64,000 nucleotides of DNA from an uncultured Gammaproteobacteria bacterium. GTDB taxonomy: Bacteria > Patescibacteriota > Microgenomatia > UBA8517. Positions 1 through 62,642 of the stretch are shown piece after piece. The translations under genes and the position numbers were made by a program. The first letter of the stretch is position 1; each line of letters begins with the position of its first letter. Below the pieces are notes generated by a model. That model searched no databases and was not told the DNA's origin. It saw only the letters and a list, made by a program, of their open reading frames with translations. Where the stretch lies: contig CAZAUT010000004.1 in the NCBI GenBank assembly GCA_964488535.1, positions 3,409 through 67,408 on the forward strand, in the 5' to 3' direction.

Positions 1-1
1 T

Positions 2-112
2 CCTACACCCAATCAGAATGCATCCGAATTGCCGTCGGCAGGAATTTCTTTCCCAACAATAATAACGATTTCAATCGGAATTATCTTTCTTCTCCCGATG
101 CTTATTATTTAG
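2..112 (+). CDS. 3' end of an upstream gene (partial; hydrophobic C-terminus ...ISIGIIFLLPMLII*)
   Basis: Open frame from the window edge to TAG at 110-112. Only 36 codons are visible and no family can be assigned. Confidence 0.2.
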   Translation, partial: PTPNQNASELPSAGISFPTIITISIGIIFLLPMLII

Positions 113-2002: not shown

Positions 2003-3844
2003 ATGAAAGTTTTTAACAAGATCATTCTTCTTTTTATTCTTTTCTTTGCTCTTGCGCTTCGTGTTTATGGGATCAATTGGGACCAAAATCAACACCTTCA
2101 TCCTGACGAGAGGTTTTTGACAATGACAACGGGTGCCATGGTTTGGCCGGAAACATTAGCCGAGTATTTAAGTCCTTCCGTTTCAAAACTAAATCCGTAT
2201 AACACAGGCACGATGTTTTATGTTTATGGAACACTTCCGACAACGATAGTCAAATATTTTTCCCGGTTCGAGTGGTTCGATGTCTTTCAATACAACAACA
2301 TTGCTCTAACCGGAAGATTGATCTCTGCGATCTTTGATATTGGGGTAGTTTACCTGATTTACTTGATCGCTAAAAATATATTTAACCAAAAGACCGGACT
2401 TTTGGCAGCGTTTTTATACTCCATATCGGTTCTCCCTATTCAGCTTTCCCACTTTTTTGCGGTTGATACGTTTTTGAACTTTTTCCTTGTTCTGTCTTTT
2501 TATTTTCTGGTTAAACTGTTAGATATTGCTTCGATTAAAAAAACATTGTCATTCCCGACTCGATCGGGAATCCATATGGAAAATATTTTTATTGATTCCC
2601 ACTTTTCCACCAGAGGCGGACTGTCGCGTGGGAATGACAGTGCTTGGTTCTATTCAGTGTTATTGAGCTTATCTTTCGGCGCCGCCCTTGCATGTAAGAT
2701 CTCCGCCCTGTATTTTCTCCCCGTAATTCTCTTGGGGTACCTTTTCTATTTCCTGAAGTTTCGCCCCCACCTACATACTACATACTATATACTATATACT
2801 GCTTTCTACCTGCTGCTTATTGCCTGCTTCGCGAGTGCGGCTTTCCGCATCCTTGATCCCCACGTTTTTACAGGCGGTCTTTTCCCGCCAAAAATAAGTC
2901 CGCAGTTTGTTCAAAACATTGAGTCGCTAAAGTCAATGGGGGTTAAGGGTTCAACTTTTCCTCCCGCAATCCAGTGGAACAACATAACTCCCATCATCTT
3001 TCCTTTAAAAAACATCGTTCTTTGGGGTTTGGGATTACCGTTGGGAGTTTTATCGGTTGTTGCAGTTATATACAAAATGATTGAAATGTTTATCGGTTTC
3101 TTTAAAGAGAATAATTTAAAAAGTTTCTATAATAATTTATTAGTAAAAGAATTTAATAGTGTGTTAATCCTCTTTTGGGTTCTCTTTCTTTTTTTCTACC
3201 AAGCCGTTCAACCAACCCCTTCCATGCGCTACTTCCTACCAATTTACCCTTTCGTTACCATTCTCTCCGCGCGTTTTTCCGAAAAATATTTGTTCCCAAA
3301 ATTTATTACTTCCCGCATACTACGTACTACATTCTACATACTACTGCTCTTATATCCCCTCTCCTTCCTCTATATTTACTCCCGTACCCATTCCCGCGTT
3401 TCGGCTTCTGAGTGGATTTATCAAAACATTCCGACCGGTTCCACTCTGTCTTGTGATGCATGGGATGATTGTCTGCCTTTGTCATTGGGAAAGGGACAAG
3501 TTATAAACCAATACAAAATTCTAACTTTGGAACCGTTCGTTCCCGACAGTATTGAAAAGGTAGGCAAATTTGAAAGCCAGTTAAAAGAGATTGATTATCT
3601 GATCTTTACCTCAAACCGCGCGTGGGGATCAATCCCCAAATGGCCGGAAAAATTCCCGTATATGGTCAAATTTTATGAAGACCTTTTTGCCGGAAAGTTT
3701 AACTTTGAAAAAGTTGCCGAAATAACATCTTACCCGACCATTCCGATACTGAACATTCCAATCCCCGACCAATCGTCGGAGGAAGCATTCACCGTCTACG
3801 ACCACCCGAAAGTGTTGATTTATAAAAACACCCAAAATAACTAG
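2003..3844 (+). CDS. GT-C fold membrane glycosyltransferase, GT39/PMT_2-like paralog 2 (carries in-frame repeat insertions)
   Basis: 613 aa. The N-terminal RVYGINWDQNQHLHPDERFLTMT motif is parallel to paralog 1. Relative to paralog 1 it has about 30 extra residues (TLSFPTRSGIHMENIFIDSHFSTRGGLSRGNDS), encoded exactly by an inverted-repeat element at 2557-2650. Confidence 0.6.
   Translation: MKVFNKIILLFILFFALALRVYGINWDQNQHLHPDERFLTMTTGAMVWPETLAEYLSPSVSKLNPYNTGTMFYVYGTLPTTIVKYFSRFEWFDVFQYNNIALTGRLISAIFDIGVVYLIYLIAKNIFNQKTGLLAAFLYSISVLPIQLSHFFAVDTFLNFFLVLSFYFLVKLLDIASIKKTLSFPTRSGIHMENIFIDSHFSTRGGLSRGNDSAWFYSVLLSLSFGAALACKISALYFLPVILLGYLFYFLKFRPHLHTTYYILYTAFYLLLIACFASAAFRILDPHVFTGGLFPPKISPQFVQNIESLKSMGVKGSTFPPAIQWNNITPIIFPLKNIVLWGLGLPLGVLSVVAVIYKMIEMFIGFFKENNLKSFYNNLLVKEFNSVLILFWVLFLFFYQAVQPTPSMRYFLPIYPFVTILSARFSEKYLFPKFITSRILRTTFYILLLLYPLSFLYIYSRTHSRVSASEWIYQNIPTGSTLSCDAWDDCLPLSLGKGQVINQYKILTLEPFVPDSIEKVGKFESQLKEIDYLIFTSNRAWGSIPKWPEKFPYMVKFYEDLFAGKFNFEKVAEITSYPTIPILNIPIPDQSSEEAFTVYDHPKVLIYKNTQNN
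2557..2650. repeat. MITE-like inverted-repeat element (TGTCATTCCCGAC ... GTGGGAATGACAG) inserted in-frame in a GT39 gene
   Basis: Termini are reverse complements of each other. The internal ACTCGATCGGGAAT also occurs at 36190-36207. The element is absent from the paralogous position in ORF 203-1861. Confidence 0.5.
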
Positions 3845-6951: not shown

Positions 6952-6952
6952 G

Positions 6953-10946: not shown

Positions 10947-12926
10947 ATGGACAACATACTGAATGGGTTAAACAAACAACAAACAGAGGCGGTGATCTAC
11001 TCCGGCGAATCGCTTCTTGTATTGGCTGGCGCCGGAAGCGGAAAGACCAAAGTACTGACGCATAGGGCAGCTTATATGATCACACAAAACATGGCCGGTC
11101 CGGAGAACCTTTTGCTTCTTACTTTCACAAATAAAGCTGCAAATGAAATGAAGGAGCGCATTAACGGGTTACTTACGGCCTATCACGCCCTGTCTGTTGC
11201 CGGTCAGCCGTTTGCCGGCACCTTTCACTCCTTTTGTGCCCGAATACTGCGAATCGACGGTGAATGGATCGGGGTTCCCCGGGATTTCTTGATTTACGAC
11301 GACAGCGATCAGAAAACCCTTATAAGCCAAATTATCAAAGAATTGGGTCTTCCGAAGGAGTATTACAATCCGGGTTCCATCGCATCACAAATATCCGAAG
11401 CAAAAACCATGATGCTTTCTCCCCTTGAATACGCCGAAGTATCTTACTCAAGAGAAAAGGAAAAAATATTCAAAATTTATAACGAATACGAAAAAGCGTT
11501 AAAAAAAGCGGGAGCGCTTGACTTTGACGATCTGCTTTTACGCTGTGTAACTCTTTTATCCGAAAGTAAACCGGTTTTGGGTAAATGGCAAAAACGTTTG
11601 ACACATATTTTTGTTGACGAATGGCAGGATACAAATATCGCTCAATATAAATTGACGAACCTCCTTGTCGGAAAGAGAAAAAACCTAACAGCCGTCGGTG
11701 ATTTTTCTCAATCGATTTACAGCTGGAGAGGGGCAGATTATAAAAACCTTAATAAATTAAAAAAAGATTACCCCAATATAAAAGTAATTAACCTTGAGCA
11801 AAATTACCGCTCAACGCAGGTGATTTTAGACGCTGCAAATTGTGTTATCAAAAGAAACACCTCCCACCCCGTCCTGTCTCTCTGGACAGACAAAAAGGGC
11901 GGGGAAAAAATTACTCTCTATCGGGCAAGAAATGAACTTGACGAGGCGGATTATGTAGTTGATCAAGTAAATAAGTTAATTGGGGAATTAGACAAAAATA
12001 AAAACTCAATCAACCGGTTAACTAATCAACTTTCCTACTCCGATGTTGCTGTCCTCTACCGAACCAATGCCCAATCGCGTGTTTTGGAAGAAGCGCTTCT
12101 TCACGCCGGAATTCCTTACGTTCTCGTGGGTGGTGTGAGGTTTTATGAAAGACGCGAAGTCAAAGACGTCTTGGCATTTTTGCGGGTATTGGCTAACCCT
12201 AAAGATTCCGTTTCAAGAAATCGAATTGAGAAATTGGGAGTCAGAAGATTGGAAAAGTTTAAGGAACTTGCTAATAGCTTGCGGTCTACGGACAACAGCA
12301 AGAAGACTAAGGAAACGTCGGATAAATTTACCACCCTTGAACTTCTCGATGCTATCCTTCAAAACACCGACTATCTTTCAAAATACAAAGCCGAAACGGA
12401 AGAAAATCAAGCCCGCCTTGAAAACATAAAAGAACTGCGCTCCGTCGCCATGGAATTTCCCGACTTATATGAATTTCTTGAAAATGTAGCGTTAAAAGAG
12501 GCCGGGCCATCCTTCCCGCAATTAAATCGGGTCTCTGCGGAAAAGCCCCCGGACAATAAAAATTGTGTAACACTCATGACTCTCCACGCTGCCAAAGGTT
12601 TGGAGTTTTCCATTGTCTTCATTGTTGGTATGGAAGAAGGACTGTTTCCTCACTCAAGAAGCTTGTTCGAGACGTCTCAACTCGAAGAGGAAAGACGTCT
12701 TTGTTATGTTGGAATTACCCGTGCAAAAGAAAAACTGTACCTAACATACGCGGGCAGACGTCTGTTTTTCGGCCAAAAATCCTCCAACCCCCCAAGCAGG
12801 TTCATCATCGACATTCCAGAAGAACTTCTCGATGGATCGGAAACCCCTCTACGAAGTTTTATTAGAGATAATCCGTTTTTAGACAATGGTGACCTTGGCG
12901 ATTTTGATGACGATATTAATTTTTAA
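10947..12926 (+). CDS. ATP-dependent DNA helicase, PcrA/UvrD family (SF1)
   Basis: Motif I AGAGSGKT, Ia TFTNKAANEM, II VDEWQDTN, III GDFSQSIYSWRGA, IV VAVLYRTNAQSR, V/VI TLHAAKGLEF...VGITRAKEKLYL. Confidence 0.85.
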   Translation: MDNILNGLNKQQTEAVIYSGESLLVLAGAGSGKTKVLTHRAAYMITQNMAGPENLLLLTFTNKAANEMKERINGLLTAYHALSVAGQPFAGTFHSFCARILRIDGEWIGVPRDFLIYDDSDQKTLISQIIKELGLPKEYYNPGSIASQISEAKTMMLSPLEYAEVSYSREKEKIFKIYNEYEKALKKAGALDFDDLLLRCVTLLSESKPVLGKWQKRLTHIFVDEWQDTNIAQYKLTNLLVGKRKNLTAVGDFSQSIYSWRGADYKNLNKLKKDYPNIKVINLEQNYRSTQVILDAANCVIKRNTSHPVLSLWTDKKGGEKITLYRARNELDEADYVVDQVNKLIGELDKNKNSINRLTNQLSYSDVAVLYRTNAQSRVLEEALLHAGIPYVLVGGVRFYERREVKDVLAFLRVLANPKDSVSRNRIEKLGVRRLEKFKELANSLRSTDNSKKTKETSDKFTTLELLDAILQNTDYLSKYKAETEENQARLENIKELRSVAMEFPDLYEFLENVALKEAGPSFPQLNRVSAEKPPDNKNCVTLMTLHAAKGLEFSIVFIVGMEEGLFPHSRSLFETSQLEEERRLCYVGITRAKEKLYLTYAGRRLFFGQKSSNPPSRFIIDIPEELLDGSETPLRSFIRDNPFLDNGDLGDFDDDINF

Positions 12927-16461: not shown

Positions 16462-16937
16462 ACAGATTCGTTGAGTAATCGTTTTATCTTTTCCATGTTT
16501 TCCTCAATCAATTCTCTTTGTTCCGGCCAGAACATGGAGGGTAATTTGTTAATATCAAACCATTCCAATTGTAAATTACCTTCATCCGGCTGGAGATTTT
16601 GTTTTCCTGAAACATCACCTGTAACAAATAAAAAATAATGCGCAATTTTCCAATCTGTCTTTTTAAAGGAAAATCTTTCCTTAACTCCAAGTTTGCAAAT
16701 CATCTTTATATTTTGAAGTCCCGTTTCTTCGCAAATTTCTCTAATTGCAGTATTCTTAATCGTCTCCCCCCGTTCACGCGTACCTTTTGGAAGCACGTAG
16801 TCCTTATATTTGTCCGTTTTAAGAAGGGCAATTTTTAACTTTGCCCGATCTTTTCTAATTACTATTCCACCCGCAGTGGTAGAAACTGGAAAGTTAGAAT
16901 CGTTAGGTTTTATATACCAGCTTTTATCAATTTTCAT
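16458..16937 (-). CDS. NUDIX hydrolase
   Basis: Nudix box PKGTRERGETIKNTAIREICEETG. Start placed at MKIDKSW (ATG at 16935-16937), which overlaps the stop of the upstream helicase. The longer annotated ORF N-terminus lies inside the helicase gene. Confidence 0.7.
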   Translation of the reverse strand: MKIDKSWYIKPNDSNFPVSTTAGGIVIRKDRAKLKIALLKTDKYKDYVLPKGTRERGETIKNTAIREICEETGLQNIKMICKLGVKERFSFKKTDWKIAHYFLFVTGDVSGKQNLQPDEGNLQLEWFDINKLPSMFWPEQRELIEENMEKIKRLLNESV

Positions 16938-19900
16938 CCGTGTTACAGAATAACTTATACTCACAATTTTTACAAAGCATGTTGCCGGAGCATTTGAAAT
17001 CGCTTCCCTCAATTTGCTTTTTATAATCCAATATTTCTGCTTTTGCTTTTTCGATTTGTTCATAGGTCCTTGTTGTTGTAACAATTTTTGGCGTGTCAAA
17101 GTAATATAACGAAAGTTTAATATGATCCGGTTTTTGGTTAAAAGGATATTCGGGAATCGTCGACGCTGCCATTGCATAAATACACAGCTGCAAATCGGTG
17201 TCTGCTTCTTTTTGTGAAATCGGATTCGCGCCGGTTTTATAATCAATAATATGAATTCCGTTTCCGTCTTTATCTACCCTATCGATTTTCCCACCTACTT
17301 TTAATCCGGATAAATTTACAATAAACGGCTGTTCTGTTTGAATCGGCAATATTTTGGGGTTAAAAAGATTTTCAAGATAGTGTTTCAGAAACTTTTTAAT
17401 TTTCTCATAAGATCGTGTTTCATGAGCTTTACTTGTATATCCGTCTGATATCCATTTTTCTTCCAAAATTTTGTGCATCAACTCAAGTGTCGGCTTTTCC
17501 CCCGCTTTTACATCATCGTAAAACTTCTTCATAACTTGATGAAATGTGTTTCCAAAGCTTTGTGATGAGGTTGGGGGGGTCGGAAGTTTATAAATATAAT
17601 GCAACTTATAATGAAGCGGGCATATTCGGAAGGTCTCAATTTGAGAATAAGAAAGAAAATCTACATGAATAGGTAGGTGGTGGTTGGTTGTTGGTAGTTG
17701 GGACGGCTCGGTAGGCTCGTAATCCATGAAGCTAAGTTGTTCGCTCCGTTCTACATTCTTCATACTACCTTCTACACTTGTTCCAAGCGCTTCCCCCACA
17801 AACGGCGAAAGTTTCTTCTCCCTTTTTCCTTCTCCGTAATAATCAGCTGCGGTTAAATAAAGCCGCTCTTTTGCCCGAGTCATTCCGACATAAAAAAGCC
17901 GTCTTTCCTCCTGAATGTGATAGTCACCTTTCGGCAAGACTTCCTTGATAAGTTCGTCAGGGATAGGGATCTGCTCTCTTCTTTCGGTTGTGGGAAATCT
18001 TTGTCCTACAAGATTGATGAGAAATACGACTGGAAATTCTAAACCCTTGGAAGAATGAACCGTCAATATGTTTACTGCATTGACATCTCCCCAATCAGTG
18101 TCAGATGCCAGGGGTGACTCACCAAGTTCACTTGCAAGGTCTATCCAGTCAACAACGGCACGAACAGTTGCGTCTTCGTGTTCAACCTCGTAAGTTTTCA
18201 GTTTGTCAAAAAACTTGGAAATGTTTTTTGCCCGTCTTTCCGCCAGCGGTGTATCGGGGGAAAGAAGTTTTAAAATAAGCCCCGTGTCGTTTAGAAAATT
18301 ATAAAGAAGCTGTCCCGCCGGTTCTTTGTTTATTAATTTTTGTTGATCGCTGATTACTTTTAATAACTTGTTTAATTTTTCTCTTGTTTCGTCCGAAACG
18401 AAAATGTCGTTATTCTTTTCCAATGCCTCGAAAAGTGATAGATTTTTATACTTTGCGTAATTTGTTATCTTGATTAAATCTCGGGCGGGAATATCAAAAT
18501 ATTCTATTGAAAGTAAACGATACATCGACACCGAATCGTCAAAGTCATACAGAACTTTAAGGAATGAAATGAGATCCACTATTTCAGGCTGTTTGAAAAG
18601 CCGTCCGGGACCCAAGAATTGGTAAGGAATTCCGTGTCTGGACATGGCGCGCATGAAGGGCTCGGCGTGGTTATTGGCACGAACCAATATCGCGATGTCG
18701 CGATAATTTAGTTGATTAGTCAATTGAGTTAATTGGTTGATTGAGTTTTTTTCTTGTTTTCCTTGGTCAACTCTGTCAACTGGACTAACTAGTTCACTTA
18801 CTGTTTTTGCCACTGCTTCCGCTTCGTTTTCAACCCGGTCAAGATGTAAAAATTTAACCCGTTCATCAACTACGTCCGAATATTTAACTTGTGAAACCAA
18901 TTTCTTATTGATCTTTTCAACCACTTCCAACCGGTCAGGATTATTGTACTGGATCAACTTATATGACTTATCCAATATTTCCTGATCCGAACGGTAGTTT
19001 TTGGTTAATGTAATAACTTTTGCTTTCGGATAGTATTTTCGAAAGTACAAAGCATTAGAAACTGCAGCCCCACGGAAGCGATAAATGCTTTGGTCATCAT
19101 CTAAAACGACAGTAATATTTCCCTCCGGGGTCGGAGACCCCTCTTTCCGAGTCAGAGACTTCTCCAAGTCGGCGACCAGGTCGGAGACCTCTTTTCCCGC
19201 CAGCAATTTCACTAATTCGTTTTGCGAAATGTTGGTGTCCTGAAACTCATCAACCAAAATATATTTGAATTTATTTTGATATTCTTTCAGCACATTCGGG
19301 CGCTTACGAAATAGTTCCAAAGTTTTTACAATCAGATCCCCAAAATCCATCACCCCTTCTTTGGTTTTCAATTCATCATATGTTTTATACGCTCCCGCCA
19401 ACTCCTTCCATTTTTGCAGTTCAATCTCTTCATCCTTCGCCTCGCCGAAGTCCCGCTCGGTGGGACGAAGGCGGGGTTTTTCTTTTTTAATTTTTGACTT
19501 TTCATTTTGATTTTTGCTTGCCCCTCGAAGCCCTGCTGAGCGGGGCGAAGTGGGGAGTTTTAAGTTTACCCAATCAAGGTATTGATTGGGTAAAATATCC
19601 TCATCCTGCAACCTTGAAAAATGAGTCAGCATCCCGTCAATAAATTTCGTAGGGTTTCCTAAAGGACGGAAATATTCAAGTTCAAATTTGAAAAGATTTT
19701 TTCTGAAAAACTGGATCGATTCGGCTTGGGTGTTTAACTTGTATTTCGGATTAAGTCCGATATGAACTGCTTCGTTTTTTAAAATTCTATCGCAAAAGGA
19801 GTGAAAGGTGGAAATCCACATTTGCGTGTACCCCAAAGGAAGTGCAACATCAATTCGCTCCTGCATTTCGGCAGCTGCTTTTTCGGTGAAAGTCAGAGCC

Positions 19901-20064
19901 AAAATTTCCGGCGGCTTGGCAAGTTTTTTTTCAATCAGAAATTTTACCCGCTCGGTAATGACCGTCGTCTTCCCCGTCCCGGCACCTGCAATAATCATTA
20001 AGGGACCATTTTTATATTCAACTGCTTTCTTTTGTTCCTCGTTTAACTTTCTATCACCCGACAT
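16927..20064 (-). CDS. UvrD-family SF1 helicase fused to a C-terminal PD-(D/E)XK (Cas4/AddB-like, Cys-cluster) nuclease; AddA/RecB-like
   Basis: 1045 aa. Helicase motifs AGAGTGKT, TFTEKAAAEM, VDEFQDTN, GDDDQSIYRFRGA, IAILVRAN, TVHSSKGLEF and GMTRAKERLYL. The C-terminus has IIDYKTG plus CSGNMLCKNCEYKLFC (nuclease with 4-Cys cluster). It contains several in-frame GC-rich repeat insertions. Confidence 0.75.
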   Translation of the reverse strand: MSGDRKLNEEQKKAVEYKNGPLMIIAGAGTGKTTVITERVKFLIEKKLAKPPEILALTFTEKAAAEMQERIDVALPLGYTQMWISTFHSFCDRILKNEAVHIGLNPKYKLNTQAESIQFFRKNLFKFELEYFRPLGNPTKFIDGMLTHFSRLQDEDILPNQYLDWVNLKLPTSPRSAGLRGASKNQNEKSKIKKEKPRLRPTERDFGEAKDEEIELQKWKELAGAYKTYDELKTKEGVMDFGDLIVKTLELFRKRPNVLKEYQNKFKYILVDEFQDTNISQNELVKLLAGKEVSDLVADLEKSLTRKEGSPTPEGNITVVLDDDQSIYRFRGAAVSNALYFRKYYPKAKVITLTKNYRSDQEILDKSYKLIQYNNPDRLEVVEKINKKLVSQVKYSDVVDERVKFLHLDRVENEAEAVAKTVSELVSPVDRVDQGKQEKNSINQLTQLTNQLNYRDIAILVRANNHAEPFMRAMSRHGIPYQFLGPGRLFKQPEIVDLISFLKVLYDFDDSVSMYRLLSIEYFDIPARDLIKITNYAKYKNLSLFEALEKNNDIFVSDETREKLNKLLKVISDQQKLINKEPAGQLLYNFLNDTGLILKLLSPDTPLAERRAKNISKFFDKLKTYEVEHEDATVRAVVDWIDLASELGESPLASDTDWGDVNAVNILTVHSSKGLEFPVVFLINLVGQRFPTTERREQIPIPDELIKEVLPKGDYHIQEERRLFYVGMTRAKERLYLTAADYYGEGKREKKLSPFVGEALGTSVEGSMKNVERSEQLSFMDYEPTEPSQLPTTNHHLPIHVDFLSYSQIETFRICPLHYKLHYIYKLPTPPTSSQSFGNTFHQVMKKFYDDVKAGEKPTLELMHKILEEKWISDGYTSKAHETRSYEKIKKFLKHYLENLFNPKILPIQTEQPFIVNLSGLKVGGKIDRVDKDGNGIHIIDYKTGANPISQKEADTDLQLCIYAMAASTIPEYPFNQKPDHIKLSLYYFDTPKIVTTTRTYEQIEKAKAEILDYKKQIEGSDFKCSGNMLCKNCEYKLFCNTDEN

Positions 20065-27811: not shown

Positions 27812-29251
27812 ATGACAAAGAATAATTATTACATAACAACCACACTGCCATACGTAAATTCTGACCCGCATATCGGGTTTGCGTTGGAAATCGTACAGGC
27901 GGACGTTTTGGCACAATATCACAAGTTGCTTGGAGATAATGTTGTCTTTAATTACGGTACAGACGAACACGGAGTCAAAGTCTATAACAAGGCGCTCGAA
28001 GAAAATATTGATCCGCAAAAATATTGCGACAAGCTTGCGAAGACGTTCAAGTCTCTAAAAACCCACCTAAATCTTTCGTCAACAAATTTTATAAGGACAA
28101 CCGACCCGCACCATATCAAAGCGGCACAGGAATTTTGGAGACTGTGTGATAAAAACGGAGATATTTACAAAAAAAATTACAAAACAAAATATTGTGTTGG
28201 GTGCGAACTTGAAAAGACAGATTCGGAACTTGTTGACGGGAAATGCCCGATTCACCCAAACCGCGATATTGAAATAAGAGAAGAAGAAAATTATTTTTTC
28301 CGCTTTTCCAAATACCAAAAAGTGCTGCTTGATCTTTATAAAAGCAATCCCGATTTTGTAATCCCCTCAAATCGTCAAAAAGAAATTGCAACTTTCGTTA
28401 AAGACGGATTGCAGGATTTTTCAATTTCGCGCCTGAAAGAAAAAATGCCGTGGGGGATTCCCGTCCCAAACGATCCGGAACACGTTATGTATGTCTGGTT
28501 TGATGCTTTGATCAACTACATTTCAACTCTCGGATGGCCGGAAAACGAAAAAGGGTTAAATGATTATTGGCCGGCTATTCAGGTTGCCGGAAAAGACAAC
28601 CTCAGACCGCAATCAGCAATGTGGCAAGCGATGCTGGCATCGGCAAACCTTCCTTTTTCAAAACAAATTTTTATCCATGGATTTATGACGCTTAACGGGC
28701 AAAAGATAAGTAAAAGTCTGGGAAACACAATAGACCCGATAGAACTTGTAAAAAAATACGGGACCGACGCCGTGCGATATTATTTACTTGCCAAAATTCA
28801 TCCGTTTGAAGATTCGGATTTTACTTATGAAAAATTTGAGGATGTTTATAATTCGGACCTTGCAAACGGGTTGGGAAATTTGGTAGCGAGAGTTTCCAAA
28901 ATGGCGGAAAACATGGGGTTGATTGTTGAACCTTCCGATAAATTGGATGTTGGAAAAGGTGTCGGAGATGCGATTGAAAATTTCAGGTTTGACAACGCCC
29001 TCTTCTTTATTTGGGAAAAAATCGCAAAATTAGACGGAAAAATAAATGAGGTAAAACCGTGGGAGTATAAACAAAAAGAAAGAAATTTAGAGGAAATTAA
29101 AGGGTTTTTACGAGATGAAGCGATATTGCAAATTCGTGAGATCGCAATTTTATTAAAACCATTTCTTCCGGAAACGTCCGATAAAATTGAGAAACAATTT
29201 GAGGGGACAAAAATAAAATCGGGAGAGGCATTATTCCCCCGCCTTCACTAA
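27812..29251 (+). CDS. metG: methionine--tRNA ligase (minimal form)
   Basis: Class I HIGH region PYVNSDPHIGFA, connective motif NYGTDEHGVKV, KISKSLGN (KMSKS). Confidence 0.85.
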   Translation: MTKNNYYITTTLPYVNSDPHIGFALEIVQADVLAQYHKLLGDNVVFNYGTDEHGVKVYNKALEENIDPQKYCDKLAKTFKSLKTHLNLSSTNFIRTTDPHHIKAAQEFWRLCDKNGDIYKKNYKTKYCVGCELEKTDSELVDGKCPIHPNRDIEIREEENYFFRFSKYQKVLLDLYKSNPDFVIPSNRQKEIATFVKDGLQDFSISRLKEKMPWGIPVPNDPEHVMYVWFDALINYISTLGWPENEKGLNDYWPAIQVAGKDNLRPQSAMWQAMLASANLPFSKQIFIHGFMTLNGQKISKSLGNTIDPIELVKKYGTDAVRYYLLAKIHPFEDSDFTYEKFEDVYNSDLANGLGNLVARVSKMAENMGLIVEPSDKLDVGKGVGDAIENFRFDNALFFIWEKIAKLDGKINEVKPWEYKQKERNLEEIKGFLRDEAILQIREIAILLKPFLPETSDKIEKQFEGTKIKSGEALFPRLH

Positions 29252-29402
29252 AGTTTCGGCGGGAAAGTAAGAATTTAGTAGTATGTAGAATGTAGTATGT
29301 AGAATGCGTATAACTTTCGTTCCATACTACTTGCTAGCTACTACTTTCTACAATGTTTAAATCCTACGTCTTGAAGCATGACCCAACTTCGCCAAGGCTA
29401 CG

Positions 29403-35897: not shown

Positions 35898-36251
35898 AAT
35901 ACAAGTATAAATAATAAACAGAAAACAGTAAACCCTCCTTCGTCCCGCCGTGCAGGACTTCGGGCGGATAAGGCAATAAACAGTAAATAAGAAACCTGAA
36001 GACAATACCTTTCCACAGCCAAAGCCTAGTGCCATACCATTTCAAACGCTTCGCGTTCGGATTGTCTGGTTCGGTCCTGCCTGCAGACAGGTCATCCCCC
36101 GCCAAGCAGTGGTTTTCTTGATCTAACGATATGCAAGAAGCACAAAACAGAAACGGAATTTGCTGCACCGGTTTCGCACTTTGTCACCAAACTCGATCGG
36201 GAATGACAGGGTGGTATTTCTGCGCAAACACGAAGCTGGTAATATTTCTTT

Positions 36252-37196
36252 TCAAGAAAGAGATTGGTAATACTCAATTGTTTTTTGGAGGCCTTCGTCG
36301 AGGGATACTTTTGGTTCCCAATTAAGAACCTCTTTTGCCTTTGAGATGTCGGGGCGTCTTTTAGTCGGGTCGTCTTTTGGAAGGGGCTTATAAACTATTT
36401 TCGATTTACTGCCGGTCAATTTTCGAATTTTATTTGCGAGCTCCATTACGGTATATTCTCCCGGATTTCCTAAATTAAACACTTCCCCGTTTGTATTTTT
36501 CTCAAGCATTGCCTTATATATCCCTTCAATAAGGTCGGATACATAGCAAAAAGATCTTGTTTGCTCCCCTTTCCCATAAACCGTCAATGGTTCTCCTGAG
36601 AGAGCTTGATTGATAAAATTACTAACCACTCTCCCGTCATCTTTTTGCATACGGGGACCGTAGGTATTAAAAATTCTGATAACCCGCGCATCGAGGTTGT
36701 ATTTATGAATGAAAATATATACAAGAGTTTCGGCAAAACGTTTTGCTTCGTCGTAACAGGAACGTACACCGAAAGTGTTAACGTTTCCCCAATAACTTTC
36801 TTTTTGCGGATGCTCCAGCGGGTCGCCGTAAATTTCGGAAGTTGACGCCAATAAAAACTTGGCTTTATTTTTTACTGCCAGTTTCAATAAATTGTATGTT
36901 CCGACGGAATTTGTAAGGGCTGTTTCTTCGGGGTGGTTTTGATAGTCAACCGGGGAAGCGGGAGAAGCAAGGTGAAATAAAAAGGTAAAAGAGTGAAAGG
37001 GTAAAAGAGTAAAAGGACGGGAAACATCGGCTTTAATGTACTTGAAGTTTTTATTTTTTAACAGGTGTTCGATGTTTTTTTCAGAGCCGGTAAGAAAATT
37101 GTCGAGGCAGATTACGTGGTACCCCCTCTCGAGTAAATATTCGCAAAGATGGCTGCCTAAAAAACCCGCACCACCTGTAACTAACACCCTTTTCAT
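36252..37196 (-). CDS. UDP-glucuronate decarboxylase (UDP-xylose synthase)-like NAD-dependent epimerase/dehydratase
   Basis: GGAGFLGSH Rossmann motif, [19 protein letters not shown] (YxxxK). Strongest similarity pattern is to the UXS/ArnA-decarboxylase subfamily. There is an in-frame TCTTTTAC repeat insertion near HLASPASP. Confidence 0.75.
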
Positions 37197-54738: not shown

Positions 54739-55944
54739 ATGACAAACACAAACCCCGTTATTTTATCAATCGACACATCTTGTGATGAAACTTCTGCAGC
54801 CGTTACGGACGGATTGACCGTTTTATCAAATGTTGTCTGGTCGCAATCAAAAATTCACGCAAAATTTGGCGGGGTCGTCCCTTCGGAAACAAGACGTCAA
54901 CATGAAAGAAAAATTTTTTGGGTCGTCGATAAAGCCGTAAATACGGCGAATATTACGTATCATAAAATTGATGCCTTTTCCGTCACCGTCGGGCCGGGAC
55001 TCGCAATTGCGTTAGGTGTCGGAATAAATTATGCAAAAAAGTTGGCTGAAAAATATTCCAAACCATTAATCGCAGTAAATCACCTTGAGGGACATCTTTT
55101 TTCAGCATTAGCTGAAAAAAGAAAACATGAAACAGAAAACAATAAACCCTCCTTCATCCCGCTAAGCGGGACATCGGGTGGGCAAAGCAATAAGCGAGGG
55201 GTGGAAAATATTCAAGACATAATTAGCAATTTTTCCGACATACTACATACTACACACTATACACTACCCGGGTTTCCTTCCTTCGGTATAGTTGTTTCAG
55301 GCGGAAACACACTTCTTGTTTTGATCAAAAAAATCGGAAAATACGAAGTGCTTGCGCAAACGTTGGATGACGCTTTGGGAGAATCGCTTGACAAATCGGC
55401 CCGGCTTTTAGGGCTGGGTTACCCCGGAGGTGCTGTTTTGGAAAAATTTGCACTGCTTGGAGACCCCCACGTGTTCAAACTTCCAATACCTATGTTGGGG
55501 CGTGAACACGAAGGTTATTACAGTTACTCGGGAATCAAAACCGCATTTTCCCGACTTTACAATTCTCTTTTGCTAAGTAACAAAGTAACCAAAAATACAA
55601 TCTACAATCTGGCCGCCTCCTACCAAAATGTTGCCTTTACACATTTTTTCAGAGTTTCTGAAAAAACAATTTCTGCCGCTATCCCGATATACAATATACA
55701 AAATACAAAATACTTATTTGTGGGTGGTGGCGTTGCGGCAAACGTTGAATTTCGAAAAAGGGTTCGGGTCATGTGCAAAAAACTTGGTCTTACTCCCCTA
55801 TTTCCTTACTCCAAAAAACTGTACGGGGACAACGCGGCGATGATTGGCGTGGTTGCGTATTTTAAATATTTAAAGAAGGAGTTTATAAAACCAGATAAAA
55901 TTGACCGCTTGCCTAATTTTAAGATTGGGGAAGGATTGTGTTAA
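54739..55944 (+). CDS. tsaD: tRNA N6-adenosine threonylcarbamoyltransferase TsaD (Kae1/Gcp)
   Basis: ILSIDTSCDETSAAV, HLEGHL, VVSGGNT and GVAANV motifs. It has an insertion of about 45 aa between HLEGHL and the VSGG motif, which coincides with a GC-rich hairpin repeat and a TACTACA microsatellite. Confidence 0.8.
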   Translation: MTNTNPVILSIDTSCDETSAAVTDGLTVLSNVVWSQSKIHAKFGGVVPSETRRQHERKIFWVVDKAVNTANITYHKIDAFSVTVGPGLAIALGVGINYAKKLAEKYSKPLIAVNHLEGHLFSALAEKRKHETENNKPSFIPLSGTSGGQSNKRGVENIQDIISNFSDILHTTHYTLPGFPSFGIVVSGGNTLLVLIKKIGKYEVLAQTLDDALGESLDKSARLLGLGYPGGAVLEKFALLGDPHVFKLPIPMLGREHEGYYSYSGIKTAFSRLYNSLLLSNKVTKNTIYNLAASYQNVAFTHFFRVSEKTISAAIPIYNIQNTKYLFVGGGVAANVEFRKRVRVMCKKLGLTPLFPYSKKLYGDNAAMIGVVAYFKYLKKEFIKPDKIDRLPNFKIGEGLC

Positions 55945-56341: not shown

Positions 56342-58660
56342 ATGGATAAAACATACAACCCCAAAGAACATGAAAAAAAGATTTATGAGATGTGGGAAAC
56401 GTCAAACGTCTTTAGTCCAAAAATTCCTTTGGAGAAAAAGGCCCTCCGGGTCGGAGACCCTCCGGGTCGGAGACCGTTCACAATAATTCTCCCCCTTCCC
56501 AACGCAAACGACCCAATGCATATGGGGCATGCTCTTTTTACAATCCAGGACATAATGATCCGCTACCACAGGATGCTTGGCGACCCAACGCTTTGGCTAC
56601 CCGGTGGAGACCACGCGGGAATTGAAACACAGTTTGTTTTTGAAAAACATTTGAAAGAAGAAGGAAAATCGCGATTTGATTTTGACCGCGAAACGCTTTA
56701 TAAAAAAATAAAAGAATATTCCGACAAGAACAAAGACCTTAATAAAAACCAGATGAAACTCCTTGGTTTTTCCATGGATTGGAGCCGGTATCATTATTCC
56801 CTTGAGCCGGAAATTGTCGAAAAAGTTCTTGCTACGTTTCGAAAACTTCATGACGACGGACTTGTATACAGGGGTGAACGGATTGTTAATTACTGCACTT
56901 TCTGCGGAACCGCTTTTTCGGAGCTTGAAGTTGAATATAAAGAAAAAGACGACTTTTTATACTTCCTTGATTATAAAAGTATAAAAATAGCAACAACCCG
57001 AACCGAAACAATATTTGCCGATGTCGCCGTTGCCTTCAACCCCAAAGACAAAAGATATCAAGGGTTGATAGGTAAAACCGCCACGATTCCCTTGATAGAT
57101 ATTAAGATCCCAATAATCTCCGATGATAATATCGATATCAAATTCGGAACCGGAGCTCTTAAGGTAACTCCCGCCCACGATCCGTTGGATTTTGAGATCG
57201 GAGTCAAAAACAGCCTTAAAACAATAAGTATCATCCAAACCAACGGACAATTGTCCGATAACCCACGGGTCCCCCAGGAATTGCGCGGTCTTTATGTTAA
57301 CCAAGCAAGAGAGAAAACACTGGAACTTCTAACCAAAGCGGGAGCTCTAATCAAAAAGGAACCCCTAAAACACTCCGTCGGGACTTGTTATAAATGCGGT
57401 CGGACAATAGAACCTCTGGTAATACCGCAATGGTTTGTTAAAACAAAACCGCTTGCAAAACCCGCAATAGATGCCATCAAAAAAGGCAAAACGAAAATAT
57501 TTCCGAAGAAACGATTTGAAAAACTGTATTTCGACTGGATGGAAAATATCCGCGACTGGAATATCAGCCGGCAAATTGTGTGGGGTCCCAGAATTCCCGT
57601 TTGGTATTGTTTGGAGTGTAATCCCGATATTCAAATTAATTTTATTGATAAAAACAAATCTGTAGTTTTCGGATCTTATAAAGATCTGGTAAATAATTAC
57701 AGTTTTGAAATTATAGCCAACGGATTACAGACAATAAGCGCGCCAAAAGATGCCAACTATCATTTGAGTGATAATAATTGTCCCAGGTGTGGCTCCGCCC
57801 ACGTCTTACAGGAAACGGACACGTTTGACACCTGGTTTCTTAGCGGACAGTGGCCCCTCACCACGCTCGGGATAAACGTCAACAGCCCTGAGAATAGCTC
57901 GCCTGATTTTAAGTATTTTTACCCAACTTCTGTTCTTGATACCTTGTGGGATATCTTGTTTTTCTGGGTTGGCAGAATGATGATGCTTGGAATTTATCTG
58001 ACAGGGAAAGCGCCGTTTGATGTTGTACACATTCATTCAAGGGTTGTTGATAAATTCGGAAAGAAGATGAGCAAAAGCAAAGGAAATGTTGTTGACCCGA
58101 TAACCGTTGTTAACCAGCATGGCGCCGACGCTCTTCGCTGGGCTTTGGTTGTTGGGATAGCACCTGCATCCGACATTGCGATAAGCGATGAAAAAATAAT
58201 CGGGGCAAGAAATTTCGCAAACAAGCTTTGGAACATGTCGCGATTTATCAATATGAAACTACAAGATTCGGGGATTAAATCCTACGACAATCTCCCCTCT
58301 TACGAAGACAATAATAAGGATTTAAATAGCGACGATAAAAAAATTATCAAAAAATTAAAAGCAATTATAAAAACGGTTACGGAAAATATTGAAGGGTATA
58401 AATTCGGTTTGGCCGCTGAAAAACTTTACGGGTTTGTGTGGCACGACTTTGCTGATTCTTACATTGAATCGACAAAAGAGCGTCTTGCAAGTTGTGACAA
58501 AACTCCTTTAATTGTTTTACGGCACGTCTTATACAACAGCCTTAAACTTCTTCATCCCTTCATGCCCTTTGTAACGGAGGCAATTTGGCAGGAGATGAAC
58601 GATCAGAGGAAACATTCTGACAAGATGTTGATAGAATCGAAATGGCCGGAAATAAAATAG
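56342..58660 (+). CDS. valS: valine--tRNA ligase (compact form)
   Basis: HMGHA (HIGH), TLWLPGGDHAGIETQ, TTRTETIFADVAVAFNPKDKRY, KMSKSKGN. There is a GC-rich 16-nt tandem duplication at 56443-56476. Confidence 0.8.
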   Translation: MDKTYNPKEHEKKIYEMWETSNVFSPKIPLEKKALRVGDPPGRRPFTIILPLPNANDPMHMGHALFTIQDIMIRYHRMLGDPTLWLPGGDHAGIETQFVFEKHLKEEGKSRFDFDRETLYKKIKEYSDKNKDLNKNQMKLLGFSMDWSRYHYSLEPEIVEKVLATFRKLHDDGLVYRGERIVNYCTFCGTAFSELEVEYKEKDDFLYFLDYKSIKIATTRTETIFADVAVAFNPKDKRYQGLIGKTATIPLIDIKIPIISDDNIDIKFGTGALKVTPAHDPLDFEIGVKNSLKTISIIQTNGQLSDNPRVPQELRGLYVNQAREKTLELLTKAGALIKKEPLKHSVGTCYKCGRTIEPLVIPQWFVKTKPLAKPAIDAIKKGKTKIFPKKRFEKLYFDWMENIRDWNISRQIVWGPRIPVWYCLECNPDIQINFIDKNKSVVFGSYKDLVNNYSFEIIANGLQTISAPKDANYHLSDNNCPRCGSAHVLQETDTFDTWFLSGQWPLTTLGINVNSPENSSPDFKYFYPTSVLDTLWDILFFWVGRMMMLGIYLTGKAPFDVVHIHSRVVDKFGKKMSKSKGNVVDPITVVNQHGADALRWALVVGIAPASDIAISDEKIIGARNFANKLWNMSRFINMKLQDSGIKSYDNLPSYEDNNKDLNSDDKKIIKKLKAIIKTVTENIEGYKFGLAAEKLYGFVWHDFADSYIESTKERLASCDKTPLIVLRHVLYNSLKLLHPFMPFVTEAIWQEMNDQRKHSDKMLIESKWPEIK

Positions 58661-61669: not shown

Positions 61670-61912
61670 TCACACAGGATATTTCCGAGAGTGTTTTGAG
61701 AGCGGGTTGCAGCGTAGTATTCTTACCAGCGACAATGCACATCCTTTTACAATTCCATGTTTCTCAAATGCTTGTTTGCTATATTCGGAGCAGGTTGGTT
61801 CAAATCTACACCCTCCTCCAAACAGAGTTACAAAAACGGGGGAAACAAACGTTTTATAAACGTTTAAGGTAAAACTACTTTTCTTCGCGGGGGATTTTTT
61901 TGTCATAAACAT
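61670..61912 (-). CDS. yidD: membrane protein insertion efficiency factor YidD
   Basis: [19 protein letters not shown]...RILRCNP signature. Confidence 0.75.
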
Positions 61913-62237
61913 GACTATCGATAAAACGTTCGACCTCTTTCATGATTTCGGAAACAGGAACTCTTTCCACCGCCGGCTTGATCAAAAAAACAAGATCGAT
62001 TCCGTCATTAACTTTCTTCCAGTTTCTCCTTAAAACATCGCGAAAAGCTCTTCTTGCTCTGTTTCGGTGTACGGAAAGCTTTGATACTTTGTTTGAAATA
62101 ATTATTCCAAAACGGGGATTGCCGATGTTTTCCCTGTGCCTGACCAAAACACCAAAACTATCGCTTTGATACAGCTTTCCGACATCTTTAAGTTTACCAA
62201 ATGCTTTTCTGGAAAGTGTAAACCTTGTTGCAAACAT
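61875..62237 (-). CDS. rnpA: ribonuclease P protein component
   Basis: [15 protein letters not shown] motif. Start placed at [11 protein letters not shown] (ATG 62235-62237), because the longer annotated N-terminus overlaps rpmH in another frame. Confidence 0.7.
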
Positions 62238-62253
62238 ACGCTCATTGAAGACG

Positions 62254-62397
62254 CTACGATATTGTAACTCTTTTTCTGTGAACAAGTTTCCGCCTTTTGA
62301 TAATTTTTCTGCCCTTTTGGGTTGAATTTCTTCTCCTGAAGCCAAGCTTTTTAACTCTCTTCTTTTTTGACGGCTGATATGTTCGTTTTGTGGACAT
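62254..62397 (-). CDS. rpmH: 50S ribosomal protein L34
   Basis: Not in the ORF track. Hand-translated as MSTKRTYQPSKKKRVKKLGFRRRNSTQKGRKIIKRRKLVHRKRVTIS*, which matches the L34 consensus (MKRTYQPS...HGFR.RM.T..GR.VL.RRR.KGR..L). It sits in the canonical position upstream of rnpA. Confidence 0.85.
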   Translation of the reverse strand: MSTKRTYQPSKKKRVKKLGFRRRNSTQKGRKIIKRRKLVHRKRVTIS

Positions 62398-62642
62398 ACT
62401 CGTATTATATTAGAAAAATCTTCACAAATAAATACCAATTTTTCTCCGAGCCGGAGGCAAATGTCACCAATGCCTAATTGGGGATTTGTATTTATTTGGT
62501 AATTGGTGTTCATTTGTATTTATTTACTGGTGTTTCGCCCTTTTTTGGGGTTGACTAATTGTGGATAACTTTATATTAGTATCTTTGTAGGGATAAGATA
62601 TTTTCTTGGTATTTACACTGCTCCAGTTCTTACTGCAATCAT
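62398..62642. promoter_or_regulatory. putative oriC / dnaA promoter region with DnaA box TGTGGATAA (62560-62568)
   Basis: Divergent rpmH/dnaA intergenic region. It has one perfect DnaA box and AT-rich repeats (ATTTGTATTTATTT x3). TTGACT-N16-ATATTA overlaps the box. Confidence 0.45.

What the first reader, a model, noticed from the sequence alone, without database searches (positions are those of the whole stretch)
19121..19555. GC-rich hairpin/direct-repeat elements embedded in-frame in the helicase-nuclease gene
Inside the AT-rich UvrD-nuclease gene (minus strand) sit three GC-rich segments: 19446-19476 (CGAAGTCCCGCTCGGTGGGACGAAGGCGGGG), 19521-19555 (CCCCTCGAAGCCCTGCTGAGCGGGGCGAAGTGGGG) and 19121-19143 (CCCTCCGGGGTCGGAGACCCCTC). 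Each can form a hairpin. The minus-strand translation reads straight through them (…SPRSAGLRGAS…, …PRLRPTERDFGEAKDEE…, …EGSPTPEGN…). They lie in the variable region between motif Ic and motif II, and between motifs IV and IVa. Related copies occur at 35937-35967 (intergenic or leader of a secreted-protein gene), at 55150-55182 inside tsaD, and at 56443-56476 in valS (see separate findings). The pattern points to a family of small GC-rich palindromic elements that colonise coding sequences in-frame.
Basis: seen in the sequence. Interest (0 to 1): 0.7.

Follow-up and report, generated by a model that had tools for sequence, protein, structure and literature searches.

The report
GC-rich hairpin repeats inside genes
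Short GC-rich hairpin repeats, resembling the known REP and Rickettsia palindromic elements, sit in-frame in variable loops of a helicase-nuclease, TsaD and ValRS in an AT-rich Woesebacteria (CPR) genome; the main hairpin type also occurs, mostly between genes, in many other bacterial phyla.

Summary
All three GC-rich segments are at the stated coordinates, are read through by the 1045-aa UvrD-helicase/PD-(D/E)XK gene (16927..20064, minus strand), and are absent from most homologs.

There are two repeat families, not one.

- Family 1 (19431-19479, 19512-19559; also 35917-35982, 55131-55196, 29234-29273, and a decayed copy at 12504-12545) is a nested hairpin: a covarying outer helix YCCNCC/GGNGGR, a conserved symmetric 3x3 loop (UUC/UUC, or GAA/GAA on the other strand), an inner helix GUCCCGC/GCGGGAC, and often a CAAG tail.
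- Family 2 (66-nt insertion 19126-19191; valS 56442-56475) is a tandem 16-17-nt mini-hairpin unit, CCCTCCGGGTCGGAGA.

The Family 1 core recurs in CPR, Verrucomicrobia/PVC and Bacteroidota genomes. It lies mostly at gene boundaries, has no Rfam family and no linked transposase. The three clear intragenic copies use all three reading frames, so conservation is at the DNA level, not the peptide level.

Best reading: REP/RPE-like palindromic repeat DNA. Gene-internal copies survive only where they are in-frame, stop-free and in hypervariable loops. Intragenic REPs in UvrD-type helicases and tRNA synthetases have been described before (PMC3733652). This is therefore a new member of a known kind, found in a new lineage. 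How the elements spread is unknown.

The parts
19431..19479 (-). Family 1 nested hairpin, copy A1, inside the helicase-nuclease gene. Sense strand: AAACCCCGCC-TTC-GTCCCAC-CGA-GCGGGAC-TTC-GGCGAGG-CGAAGG. Encodes KPRLRPTERDFGEAKD.
   Evidence: Covariance model R1 gives 52 bits, E=1.5e-10. Pattern match. The plus (GAA) strand folds at -28.0 kcal/mol, z=-3.6; the mRNA-sense strand folds at -20.0, z=-1.35.
19512..19559 (-). Family 1, divergent copy B, in the same helicase loop. Sense strand: CTCCCCA-CTTCG-CCCCGC-TCA-GCAGGG-CTTCG-AGGGG-CAAGC. Encodes LPTSPRSAGLRGAS.
   Evidence: R1 gives 22.5 bits, E=0.0024. The plus strand folds at -22.8 kcal/mol, z=-3.0; the sense strand at -15.4, z=-1.1. A short form lies at the same site in P0075/L170: CCCCA-CTTCG-CCAAGG-CTTCG-C-GGGG.
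19426..19557 (-). Whole hypervariable loop of the helicase (residues about 170-213) holding B, an A-rich spacer (KNQNEKSKIKKEK) and A1. It lies between motifs Ib/Ic and II.
   Evidence: 22-sequence alignment: loop length ranges from about 10 aa to 44 aa. The closest relative has an unrelated 24-aa loop. AlphaFold pLDDT is below 50 for residues 171-209, but the model is weak overall.
19126..19191 (-). Family 2: exact 66-nt (22-codon) insertion between helicase motifs II and III. It is made of about four degenerate tandem units, TCTCCGACCYGGAGRG on the sense strand, and encodes EVSDLVADLEKSLTRKEGSPTP. GAGG microhomology occurs at both junctions.
   Evidence: Codon alignment to L120: GGA AAA | 66 nt | GAG GGA AAT. 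GGTCGGAGACC occurs at 19129 and 19179. The insertion is absent in 19 of 21 homologs.
56442..56475 (+). Family 2: two perfect tandem 16-nt units, CCCTCCGGGTCGGAGA, in valS (56342..58660). They encode ALRVGDPPGRR, an 11-aa insertion just before the PF.I.P.PN..HMGH segment.
   Evidence: two exact matches; absent from about 55 homologs; position relative to T. thermophilus ValRS.
55131..55196 (+). Family 1, copy A3, a 66-nt element inside tsaD (54739..55944). It encodes KPSFIPLSGTSGGQSNK and is part of a roughly 50-aa insertion (residues 129-178, about 55123-55272).
   Evidence: R1 gives 44.8 bits. It is 80% identical to A2 over 66 nt. Insertion relative to PDB TsaD chains and relative to homologs.
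35917..35982 (+). Family 1, copy A2, intergenic. It lies about 32 nt upstream of the ATG (35897, minus strand) of a small secreted-protein gene and downstream of the epimerase gene 36252..37196. The transcribed (minus) strand carries the GAA version.
   Evidence: R1 gives 47.8 bits. Sequence and signal-peptide start read. Pfam assignment of 36252..37196.
29234..29273 (+). Family 1, short form: CCCCGCC-TTC-ACTAAAG-TTTC-GGCGGG. It straddles the stop codon of the MetRS gene 27812..29251.
   Evidence: R1 gives 22.7 bits, E=0.0022. Sequence. Fold -12.1 kcal/mol, z=-2.5. Pfam.
12504..12545 (+). Decayed Family 1 copy inside the second UvrD-type helicase (10947..12926). It is orthologous to an intact copy in the relative, L120:17444-17494.
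   Evidence: Codon alignment: GPSF-PQLNRVSAEK against EPSFVPTKSELRKGK. The L120 copy scores 30.4 bits with R1.

Best explanation
The segments are copies of two families of small GC-rich palindromic repeat DNA. They are the same kind of thing as REPs (repetitive extragenic palindromes) and the Rickettsia palindromic elements.

Shown by the data:
- The copies are dispersed and alike at the nucleotide level.
- The hairpin is maintained by compensatory changes.
- Copies are present in some orthologous genes and absent from others, and old copies decay.
- The gene-internal copies sit in-frame in hypervariable loops.

Inferred:
- New copies arise anywhere in this gene-dense genome.
- Inside essential genes, only copies that add a multiple of three bases, contain no stop codon (easy for GC-rich sequence) and fall in tolerant surface loops survive.
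- Those copies are then simply translated as extra, probably disordered, loop residues and slowly decay.
- The bias towards carrying the UUC strand in the mRNA is most simply explained by the A-rich flanks, which then encode hydrophilic K/N/E/Q residues, and by that strand folding less strongly in the mRNA.

The copying mechanism is unknown. The invariant internal loop with its closing pairs, and the frequent unpaired CAAG tail at the hairpin foot, resemble the structure-plus-tag signals that single-strand HUH transposases (RAYTs) read on REPs. I therefore favour a trans-acting single-strand DNA enzyme for Family 1. For Family 2 I favour replication slippage or template switching to expand the tandem units.
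For: Dispersed repeats beyond chance.

A2 and A3 are 80% identical over 66 nt in unrelated contexts.

Covariation in 74 copies:
- 90.5% of cells are paired, against 82.9% in shuffles and at most 51% with slid partners.
- 72 double-sided changes, against 26.
- 0 of 500 shuffles reach the observed values.

Wobble-type mismatches are equal on both strands (26 GT/TG against 34 AC/CA), so no RNA strand is favoured.

The three clear intragenic copies use all three frames relative to CTTCG.

Insertions are lineage-specific.

An orthologous copy is intact in the relative and decayed in the window.

Relatives carry other copies at other sites of the same helicase: NPPSRKASEG occurs at three sites in 12 homologs.

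Family 2 dimers occur in at least 10 low-GC metagenome contigs.

The CAAG/CAAAG tail is present in 25 of 74 copies against 6.4 expected.

Precedent: intragenic REPs in UvrD/REP helicases, uvrA/B and tRNA synthetase genes (PMC3733652), and in-frame RPEs (PMC10969869).
Against: - No transposase or other recurrent gene lies within 2.5 kb of 71 copies, and none was found in the 30 window ORFs scanned.
- No target-site duplication could be defined.
- The genome-wide copy number for this organism is unknown; only 64 kb was seen.
- Near-identity of the core across phyla is unusual for REPs, which are usually lineage-specific. It could instead point to a conserved host function.
- Translation of the inserted segments is inferred from the intact frame, not shown.
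- Fold z-scores of single copies are modest.
Confidence: 0.72

Rival explanations
1. The hairpins are functional RNA structures. At gene ends they would act as terminator-like or stabilising signals. Inside genes they would act as translation-pausing or mRNA-stability signals maintained by selection.
For: - The helices covary.
- Many copies in other genomes, and the copy at 29234, sit at gene ends or after tRNAs.
- The core is conserved across phyla.
- REPs are thought to act this way in some species (PMC3733652).
Against: - No strand asymmetry in wobble pairs.
- Both orientations occur downstream of genes and tRNAs.
- No U-tract follows the hairpin.
- Intragenic copies carry the weaker-folding strand in the mRNA.
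- Intragenic copies are absent from close orthologs and decay with time.
- No Rfam family matches.
Confidence: 0.12
2. The GC-rich palindromes arise locally and repeatedly by replication slippage, hairpin-templated synthesis or quasipalindrome correction in hypervariable loops, without any transposition. Similar sequences at different sites would then be convergent.
For: - Family 2 is a tandem array of degenerate 16-17-nt units with junction microhomology and perfect dimers.
- Nested hairpin-in-hairpin arrangements occur (L102, L077/L056).
- No transposase was found.
Against: - A2 and A3 share 66 nt, including non-palindromic A-rich flanks, in unrelated loci.
- The same 27-nt core, tail and covarying outer helix appear in dozens of genomes from several phyla.
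- The same 16-nt unit appears in unrelated genes and in many metagenome contigs.
Confidence: 0.1
3. The inserted segments are selected at the protein level, as peptide modules or flexible linkers that adapt the helicase, TsaD and ValRS. The nucleotide similarity would be a by-product.
For: - The insertions are in-frame, hydrophilic and located in loops.
- The short form PPSRKASEG recurs in one frame at three helicase sites.
Against: - A1, B and A3 are read in three different frames and give unrelated peptides (RLRPTERDFG, PTSPRSAGLRGAS, PSFIPLSGTSGG).
- An intergenic copy (A2) is as well conserved as the coding copies.
- The helices covary at the nucleotide level.
- The segments are absent in most orthologs.
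Confidence: 0.04

Closest known systems
REPs (repetitive extragenic palindromes), GTAG- and CGTC-tagged superfamilies, including intragenic REPs (Di Nocera et al. 2013, PMC3733652)
   Same: - Short GC-rich stem-loop repeats that are dispersed and mostly close to gene ends.
- A conserved short unpaired motif at one foot of the hairpin.
- Occasional in-frame copies inside genes, notably UvrD/REP helicases, uvrA/B and tRNA synthetases, encoding 20-80 extra residues.
- CGTC REPs likewise lack a dedicated transposase.
- CGTC-1 (Neisseria dRS3, as I recall ATTCCCGC..GCGGGAAT) shares the TCCCGC/GCGGGA core.
   Different: - No unpaired GTAG or CGTC tag. CGTC is present but is paired within the inner stem; the tail is CAAG.
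- Two nested helices separated by a conserved symmetric 3x3 loop, instead of one 8-9-bp stem beginning with AT.
- The core is almost identical across CPR, PVC and Bacteroidota.
- No RAYT link was seen.
Rickettsia palindromic elements (RPE)
   Same: Palindromic repeats inserted in-frame into unrelated housekeeping genes of a small, AT-rich, reduced genome. They are tolerated as extra surface segments and decay over time.
   Different: - RPEs are about 100-150 bp, carry their own conserved peptide in one frame and are confined to Rickettsia (PMC10969869).
- These elements are 16-66 nt, are read in all three frames, and most relatives are intergenic.
GC clusters of yeast mitochondrial DNA and other organellar hairpin repeats (PMC4478555; sponge RHE, PMC2800124)
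   Same: Small GC-rich palindromic mobile sequences that stand out in a very AT-rich genome and can sit within coding regions.
   Different: They occur in eukaryotic organelles and have unrelated sequences. I saw only titles and abstracts, so this is an analogy, not a tested comparison.
[quoted passage not shown]
   Same: Small, non-autonomous, with inverted repeats, sometimes forming in-frame fusions with host ORFs.
   Different: No parent IS with matching ends and no variable target-site duplication were found. The CTTCG direct repeats flank the inner palindrome in every copy, short forms included, so they are part of the element.

Membership tests
REP / REPIN (RAYT-mobilised) | Short (20-40 bp) GC-rich stem-loop present in multiple dispersed copies | tested here: met
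   Five R1 hits with E<0.01 in 64 kb. Helices covary across 74 copies.
REP / REPIN (RAYT-mobilised) | Unpaired GTAG or CGTC tetranucleotide at one end of the stem-loop (PMC3733652) | tested here: not met
   There is no GTAG. CGTC occurs (CTT-CGTC-CCGC), but G, T and C are paired in the inner helix. A CAAG/CAAAG tail follows the outer helix in 25 of 74 copies against 6.4 expected.
REP / REPIN (RAYT-mobilised) | A RAYT (IS200/IS605-type Y1 transposase) gene in the genome, flanked by the REPs | tested here: inconclusive
   No recurrent gene lies within 2.5 kb of 71 copies. No transposase was found in 30 window ORFs. The rest of the genome was not available.
REP / REPIN (RAYT-mobilised) | Mostly extragenic, close to the 3' ends of genes; high copy number | tested here: inconclusive
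   In other genomes most copies lie in short stop-free spans or at ORF ends. In this window 3 of 5 clear copies are intragenic. Extra copies are rare in the 8-kb loci (3 in 249 kb). No whole-genome count was possible.
CGTC-1..4 REP families | 8-9-bp stem starting with A-T pairs, 4-5-nt loop, CCA tail | tested here: not met
   The inner stem is GTCCCGC (7 bp), the loop is 3-7 nt, and the sequence continues CTTCGG plus the outer helix.
Rickettsia palindromic elements | About 100-150 bp element carrying one conserved peptide, inserted in-frame | tested here: not met
   The elements are 16-66 nt. A1, B and A3 are read in three different frames.
MITE | Terminal inverted repeats plus a target-site duplication that differs between copies; a related autonomous IS | tested here: inconclusive
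   Inverted repeats are present. No variable duplication appears at the A2/A3 boundaries. No IS was found.
Curated structured RNA family (Rfam 15) | Match to a covariance model at the gathering score | tested here: not met
   Only tRNA matched in the window and in 10 loci carrying the motif. Nothing credible appeared at E<=10 over 19050-19650.

The most novel reading that the evidence does not exclude
The nested hairpin would be an undescribed, cross-phylum superfamily of REP-like elements. Its features are a covarying outer helix, an invariant C-UUC-G / C-UUC-G (or GAA/GAA) symmetric loop, an inner helix of variable length, and a CAAG tail.

The conserved internal loop would be the recognition signal of an unknown trans-acting single-strand DNA enzyme or conserved host factor. 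The elements would insert into hairpin loops, including each other's. In gene-dense CPR genomes they would be a regular source of new loop sequence in essential proteins.
Probability: 0.3. Interest if true: 0.65.

Novelty: new member of a known kind. Interest (0 to 1): 0.5.

Why it matters
Small palindromic repeats inside essential genes are known from Rickettsia and a few REP-rich bacteria. I found no report of them in CPR/Patescibacteria in the paper library.

- These organisms have tiny, tightly packed genomes and many proteins with unexplained lineage-specific insertions. Repeat invasion of variable loops would explain part of that length variation. It would also matter for annotation, phylogenetic alignment and structure prediction of CPR proteins.
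- The same nested hairpin core appears in CPR, Verrucomicrobia/PVC and Bacteroidota and has no Rfam entry. That gives a concrete, testable candidate for a new REP-like superfamily and for the enzyme that copies it.

Tried and rejected
- **Rfam.** Searches of the window, of 19050-19650 at a lax E-value, and of 10 motif-bearing loci returned only tRNAs.
- **Literature search for the core as a text string.** It returned only unrelated primer coincidences.
- **Linked gene.** All-against-all comparison of ORFs within 2.5 kb of 71 copies found no linked gene. The only small cluster is a GIY-YIG-type ORF beside four copies, at least three of them tRNA-adjacent.
- **Viral contigs.** 0 hits for Family 1 and 1 hit for Family 2, so there is no sign of a viral carrier.
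- **Strand test by wobble pairs.** There is no asymmetry across phyla. In this window all four copies fold better on the GAA strand, but that is too few copies to interpret.
- **High-GC hits of both collection scans.** They show no extension beyond the search pattern. Several fall in one conserved protein-coding stretch, so I treated them as chance.
- **AlphaFold model of the helicase from 22 sequences.** The model is weak (mean pLDDT 58.5). The inserts score below 50, but so do long conserved stretches, so this is only weak support for disordered loops.
- **Empty site for B+A1 in the closest relative.** None is available; that genome has a different 24-aa loop sequence there.
- **Exact look-up of the helicase protein's contig.** It failed.
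Full report
**Setting.** The window has 38.5% GC. The gene 16927..20064 (minus strand, 1045 aa) has UvrD-helicase, UvrD_C and PD-(D/E)XK nuclease domains. Its closest database relatives are Candidatus Woesebacteria (CPR/Microgenomates) proteins of 960-1050 aa. The nearest non-identical ones are 76% identical and 992 aa long. The neighbouring genes match the gene order of that relative's contig, L120/L121.

**Observation.** The three quoted sequences are at the stated coordinates. They are among the few 30-nt stretches of at least 70% GC in the window. The ORF reads through them and gives the quoted peptides.

Related copies elsewhere in the window are far beyond chance:
- The Family 1 pattern gives 3 matches against 0.02 expected.
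- The Family 2 17-mer gives 5 matches at up to 3 mismatches against 0.00 expected.
- blastn joins A1 to the tsaD copy (62 nt, E=6e-8) and to the 35.9-kb copy (51 nt, E=2e-7).

**Two families.** Family 1 contains 19431-19479 (A1), 19512-19559 (B), 35917-35982 (A2) and 55131-55196 (A3). It also contains a short form at 29234-29273 across the MetRS stop codon. These assignments come from a covariance model built on 74 copies. A2 and A3 are 80% identical over 66 nt, including the A-rich flanks AAACAGAAAACARTAAA and GCAATAARC.

Family 2 is a 16-17-nt unit, CCCTCCGGGTCGGAGA, which is itself a mini-hairpin (CTCCG-GGT-CGGAG).
- valS carries two perfect tandem units.
- The helicase segment at 19121 is the end of an exact 66-nt insertion, 19126-19191.
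- On the sense strand that insertion is about four degenerate units, TCTCCGACCYGGAGRG, with GAGG microhomology at both junctions.

**Insertion status.** In the 22-sequence helicase alignment, B+A1 lie in a loop that is about 10 aa long in several homologs and 44 aa in the query. This loop lies between motifs Ib/Ic and II. The 66-nt insertion lies between motif II (DEFQD) and motif III (DDDQSIYRFRGA), not IV-IVa. It is absent in 19 of 21 homologs; two homologs have a different insert at the same place.
- **tsaD:** about 50 residues (129-178) have no counterpart in solved TsaD structures. They lie in a loop that ranges from 5 to 55 aa among homologs, and the element-encoded peptide is unique to the query.
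- **valS:** the repeat is an 11-aa insertion absent from about 55 homologs, just upstream of the HMGH region aligned to T. thermophilus ValRS.
- **Wider screen:** among 120 helicase and 120 tsaD homologs, the nested-form peptides occur only in the query.

**Family 1 anatomy.** The anatomy, read from the 74-copy alignment, is:
- an outer helix YCCNCC/GGNGGR;
- a symmetric 3x3 internal loop, UUC/UUC (GAA/GAA on the other strand), closed by invariant C-G and G-C pairs;
- an inner helix GUCCCGC/GCGGGAC;
- a 3-7-nt terminal loop.

The positions left free by my search pattern covary. For example, pair 5/41 is CG 33, UA 21, UG 13, and pair 20/26 is CG 37, AU 18. Overall, 90.5% of cells are paired against 82.9% in shuffles and at most 51% when partners are slid, and 0 of 500 shuffles reach the observed covariation.

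A CAAG/CAAAG tail follows the outer helix in 25 of 74 copies against 6.4 expected.

Short forms keep the outer helix and the two CTTCG motifs but have only 6-7 nt between them. Examples are 29234, the NPPSRKASEG element of the relative, and P0075.

**DNA level, not peptide or RNA level.** A1, B and A3 are read in the three different frames relative to CTTCG: CTT CGT, CT TCG and C TTC. They give unrelated peptides.

Wobble-type mismatches are equally common for either strand (26 GT/TG against 34 AC/CA). There is therefore no sign that one RNA strand is under selection.

In this window the GAA strand folds better in all four copies:

| Copy | GAA strand (kcal/mol) | UUC strand (kcal/mol) |
|---|---|---|
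| A1 | -28.0 | -20.0 |
| B | -22.8 | -15.4 |
| A2 | -17.8 | -12.3 |
| A3 | -19.2 | -18.5 |

The helicase and tsaD mRNAs carry the weaker UUC strand. With DNA parameters, and for the third segment, the z-scores are unremarkable.

**Distribution.** Of these, 72 carry the stricter core, and they also show the extended stems, the complementary outer helix and the tail, none of which the pattern required. By taxon they are 26 CPR/Patescibacteria, 20 Verrucomicrobia/PVC, 14 Bacteroidota and 12 others. The high-GC hits are chance matches or protein-coding matches.

Most of the true copies lie in short stop-free spans or at ORF ends, and some lie directly after tRNAs. A few are inside long ORFs. Extra copies within the fetched 8-kb loci are rare (3 in 249 kb), whereas this window has 5 in 64 kb.

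- No Rfam family matches.
- No gene is consistently nearby.
- The pattern is absent from viral contigs.

Family 2 was found in 47 metagenome loci. Fourteen are low-GC, CPR-like contigs, and at least 10 of these show dimers or arrays beyond the pattern. They are mostly intergenic.

**History.** The relative's second UvrD-type helicase has an intact copy at L120:17444-17494. The window's ortholog has a decayed copy at the same site, 12504-12545. Some insertions are therefore old and eroding.

Relatives carry other copies at other sites. The short form NPPSRKASEG occurs at three different helicase sites in 12 homologs, and another copy lies in a GT87 gene in L121.

A 60%-identical homolog (P0075) has a short form at exactly the site of B, while closer relatives lack it. 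That loop is either an old, repeatedly lost insertion or a hot spot.

**Orientation.** All intragenic Family 1 copies seen in Woesebacteria, about six independent sites, carry the UUC strand in the mRNA. In other taxa, counting copies in ORF-like spans of at least 900 nt, the split is 5 loci to 2. This is suggestive rather than proven. Family 2 occurs in both orientations: antisense in the helicase and sense in valS.

**Explanation.** The data fit REP/RPE-like palindromic repeat DNA. Intragenic copies are survivors of a filter: a multiple of 3, no stops, and a tolerant loop. The AlphaFold model gives pLDDT below 50 for residues 171-209 and 292-314. The model is weak overall, so this is minor support.

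The copying mechanism is not shown. The conserved internal loop and the tail suggest structure-specific recognition of single-stranded DNA, as RAYTs do with REPs (PMC3479197 and PMC3116915, seen only in the listing; the rest is my own knowledge). Nested arrangements suggest that hairpin loops are preferred targets. Examples are L102, where a full copy sits inside GTCCCGCC...GGCGGGAC, and L077/L056, which have an extra 12-bp helix.

**Comparison with what is known.** Di Nocera et al. 2013 (PMC3733652) describe GTAG- and CGTC-tagged REPs in more than 80 species. They report intragenic REPs, many in repair genes (UvrD/REP helicase, uvrA/B, DNA polymerases) and in tRNA synthetases, encoding 20-82 residues. 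They also report that CGTC REPs lack a dedicated transposase.

The present elements fail the defining tag and stem features of those families, and they fail the size and single-frame features of RPEs. They work like these families but are not members of them. I found no report of such elements in CPR.

**Verdict.** This is a new member of a known kind, of moderate interest.

Noticed in passing
L044:5210-5336; L106:3480-3550; L012, L052, L076 and L011 near their motif positions: Several Family 1 copies start directly at, or within a few bases of, a tRNA 3' end, in either orientation. In L044 the outer helix uses the acceptor-stem 3' strand (TGCCCACC...GGTGGGCA). A small GIY-YIG-type ORF lies beside four copies (L011, L044, L076, L116), at least three of which are among these tRNA-adjacent ones.
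   Followed up: partly
L102:787-836; L077:540-615; L056:1230-1300: Self-nesting. In L102 a complete Family 1 copy sits inside another GTCCCGCC...GGCGGGAC helix. In two Bacteroidales loci the core is enclosed by an extra perfect 12-bp helix (CCTTCCCCCTGC/GCAGGGGGAAGG).
   Followed up: no
window 29270-29350, 55239-55256, 3316-3345: An AT-rich repeat, CATACTAC / TACTACATACTAC (and its complement GTAGTATG), occurs next to two Family 1 copies. One is after the MetRS hairpin, where it forms a long inverted repeat. The other is inside the tsaD insertion. It also occurs in the gene 2003..3844.
   Followed up: partly
window 18690-18770 (helicase residues about 437-460): A third hypervariable helicase loop (VDRVDQGKQEKNSINQLTQLTNQLN) is AT-rich and repeat-like. 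At this site the closest relative instead has the GC-rich short element NPPSRKASEG, and P0007 and P0049 have similar N/Q-rich strings.
   Followed up: partly
L120:10500-10580; tsaD homologs P0122, P0125, P0132, P0157: Other low-complexity repeat peptides fill the same loops in relatives. Examples are SEIRNPK (from AAATCCGAAATCCGAAA tandem DNA) in the relative's helicase, and KNFQFPISNFQFKN in several TsaD proteins. Several repeat families appear to compete for the same tolerant loops in CPR proteins.
   Followed up: no
window 62441-62457 (minus strand), inside ORF 61875..62513: Possible single Family 2 unit, CCTCCGGCTCGGAGAAA (3 mismatches; the hairpin CTCCG-GCT-CGGAG is intact), within another ORF.
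   Followed up: no
L120 against L121, about 4.5-7.7 kb: Two contigs encode the identical helicase but differ in gene content upstream. L120 has a Trp-repressor-like gene. L121 has a GT87 glycosyltransferase that carries a short Family 1 copy (6929-6970).
   Followed up: no
window 1-64000: Cumulative GC skew falls steadily to about 50 kb and then flattens. Gene orientation changes from mostly minus to mostly plus in the same region. This may mark a change in replication direction, which would matter for any strand-specific insertion model.
   Followed up: no
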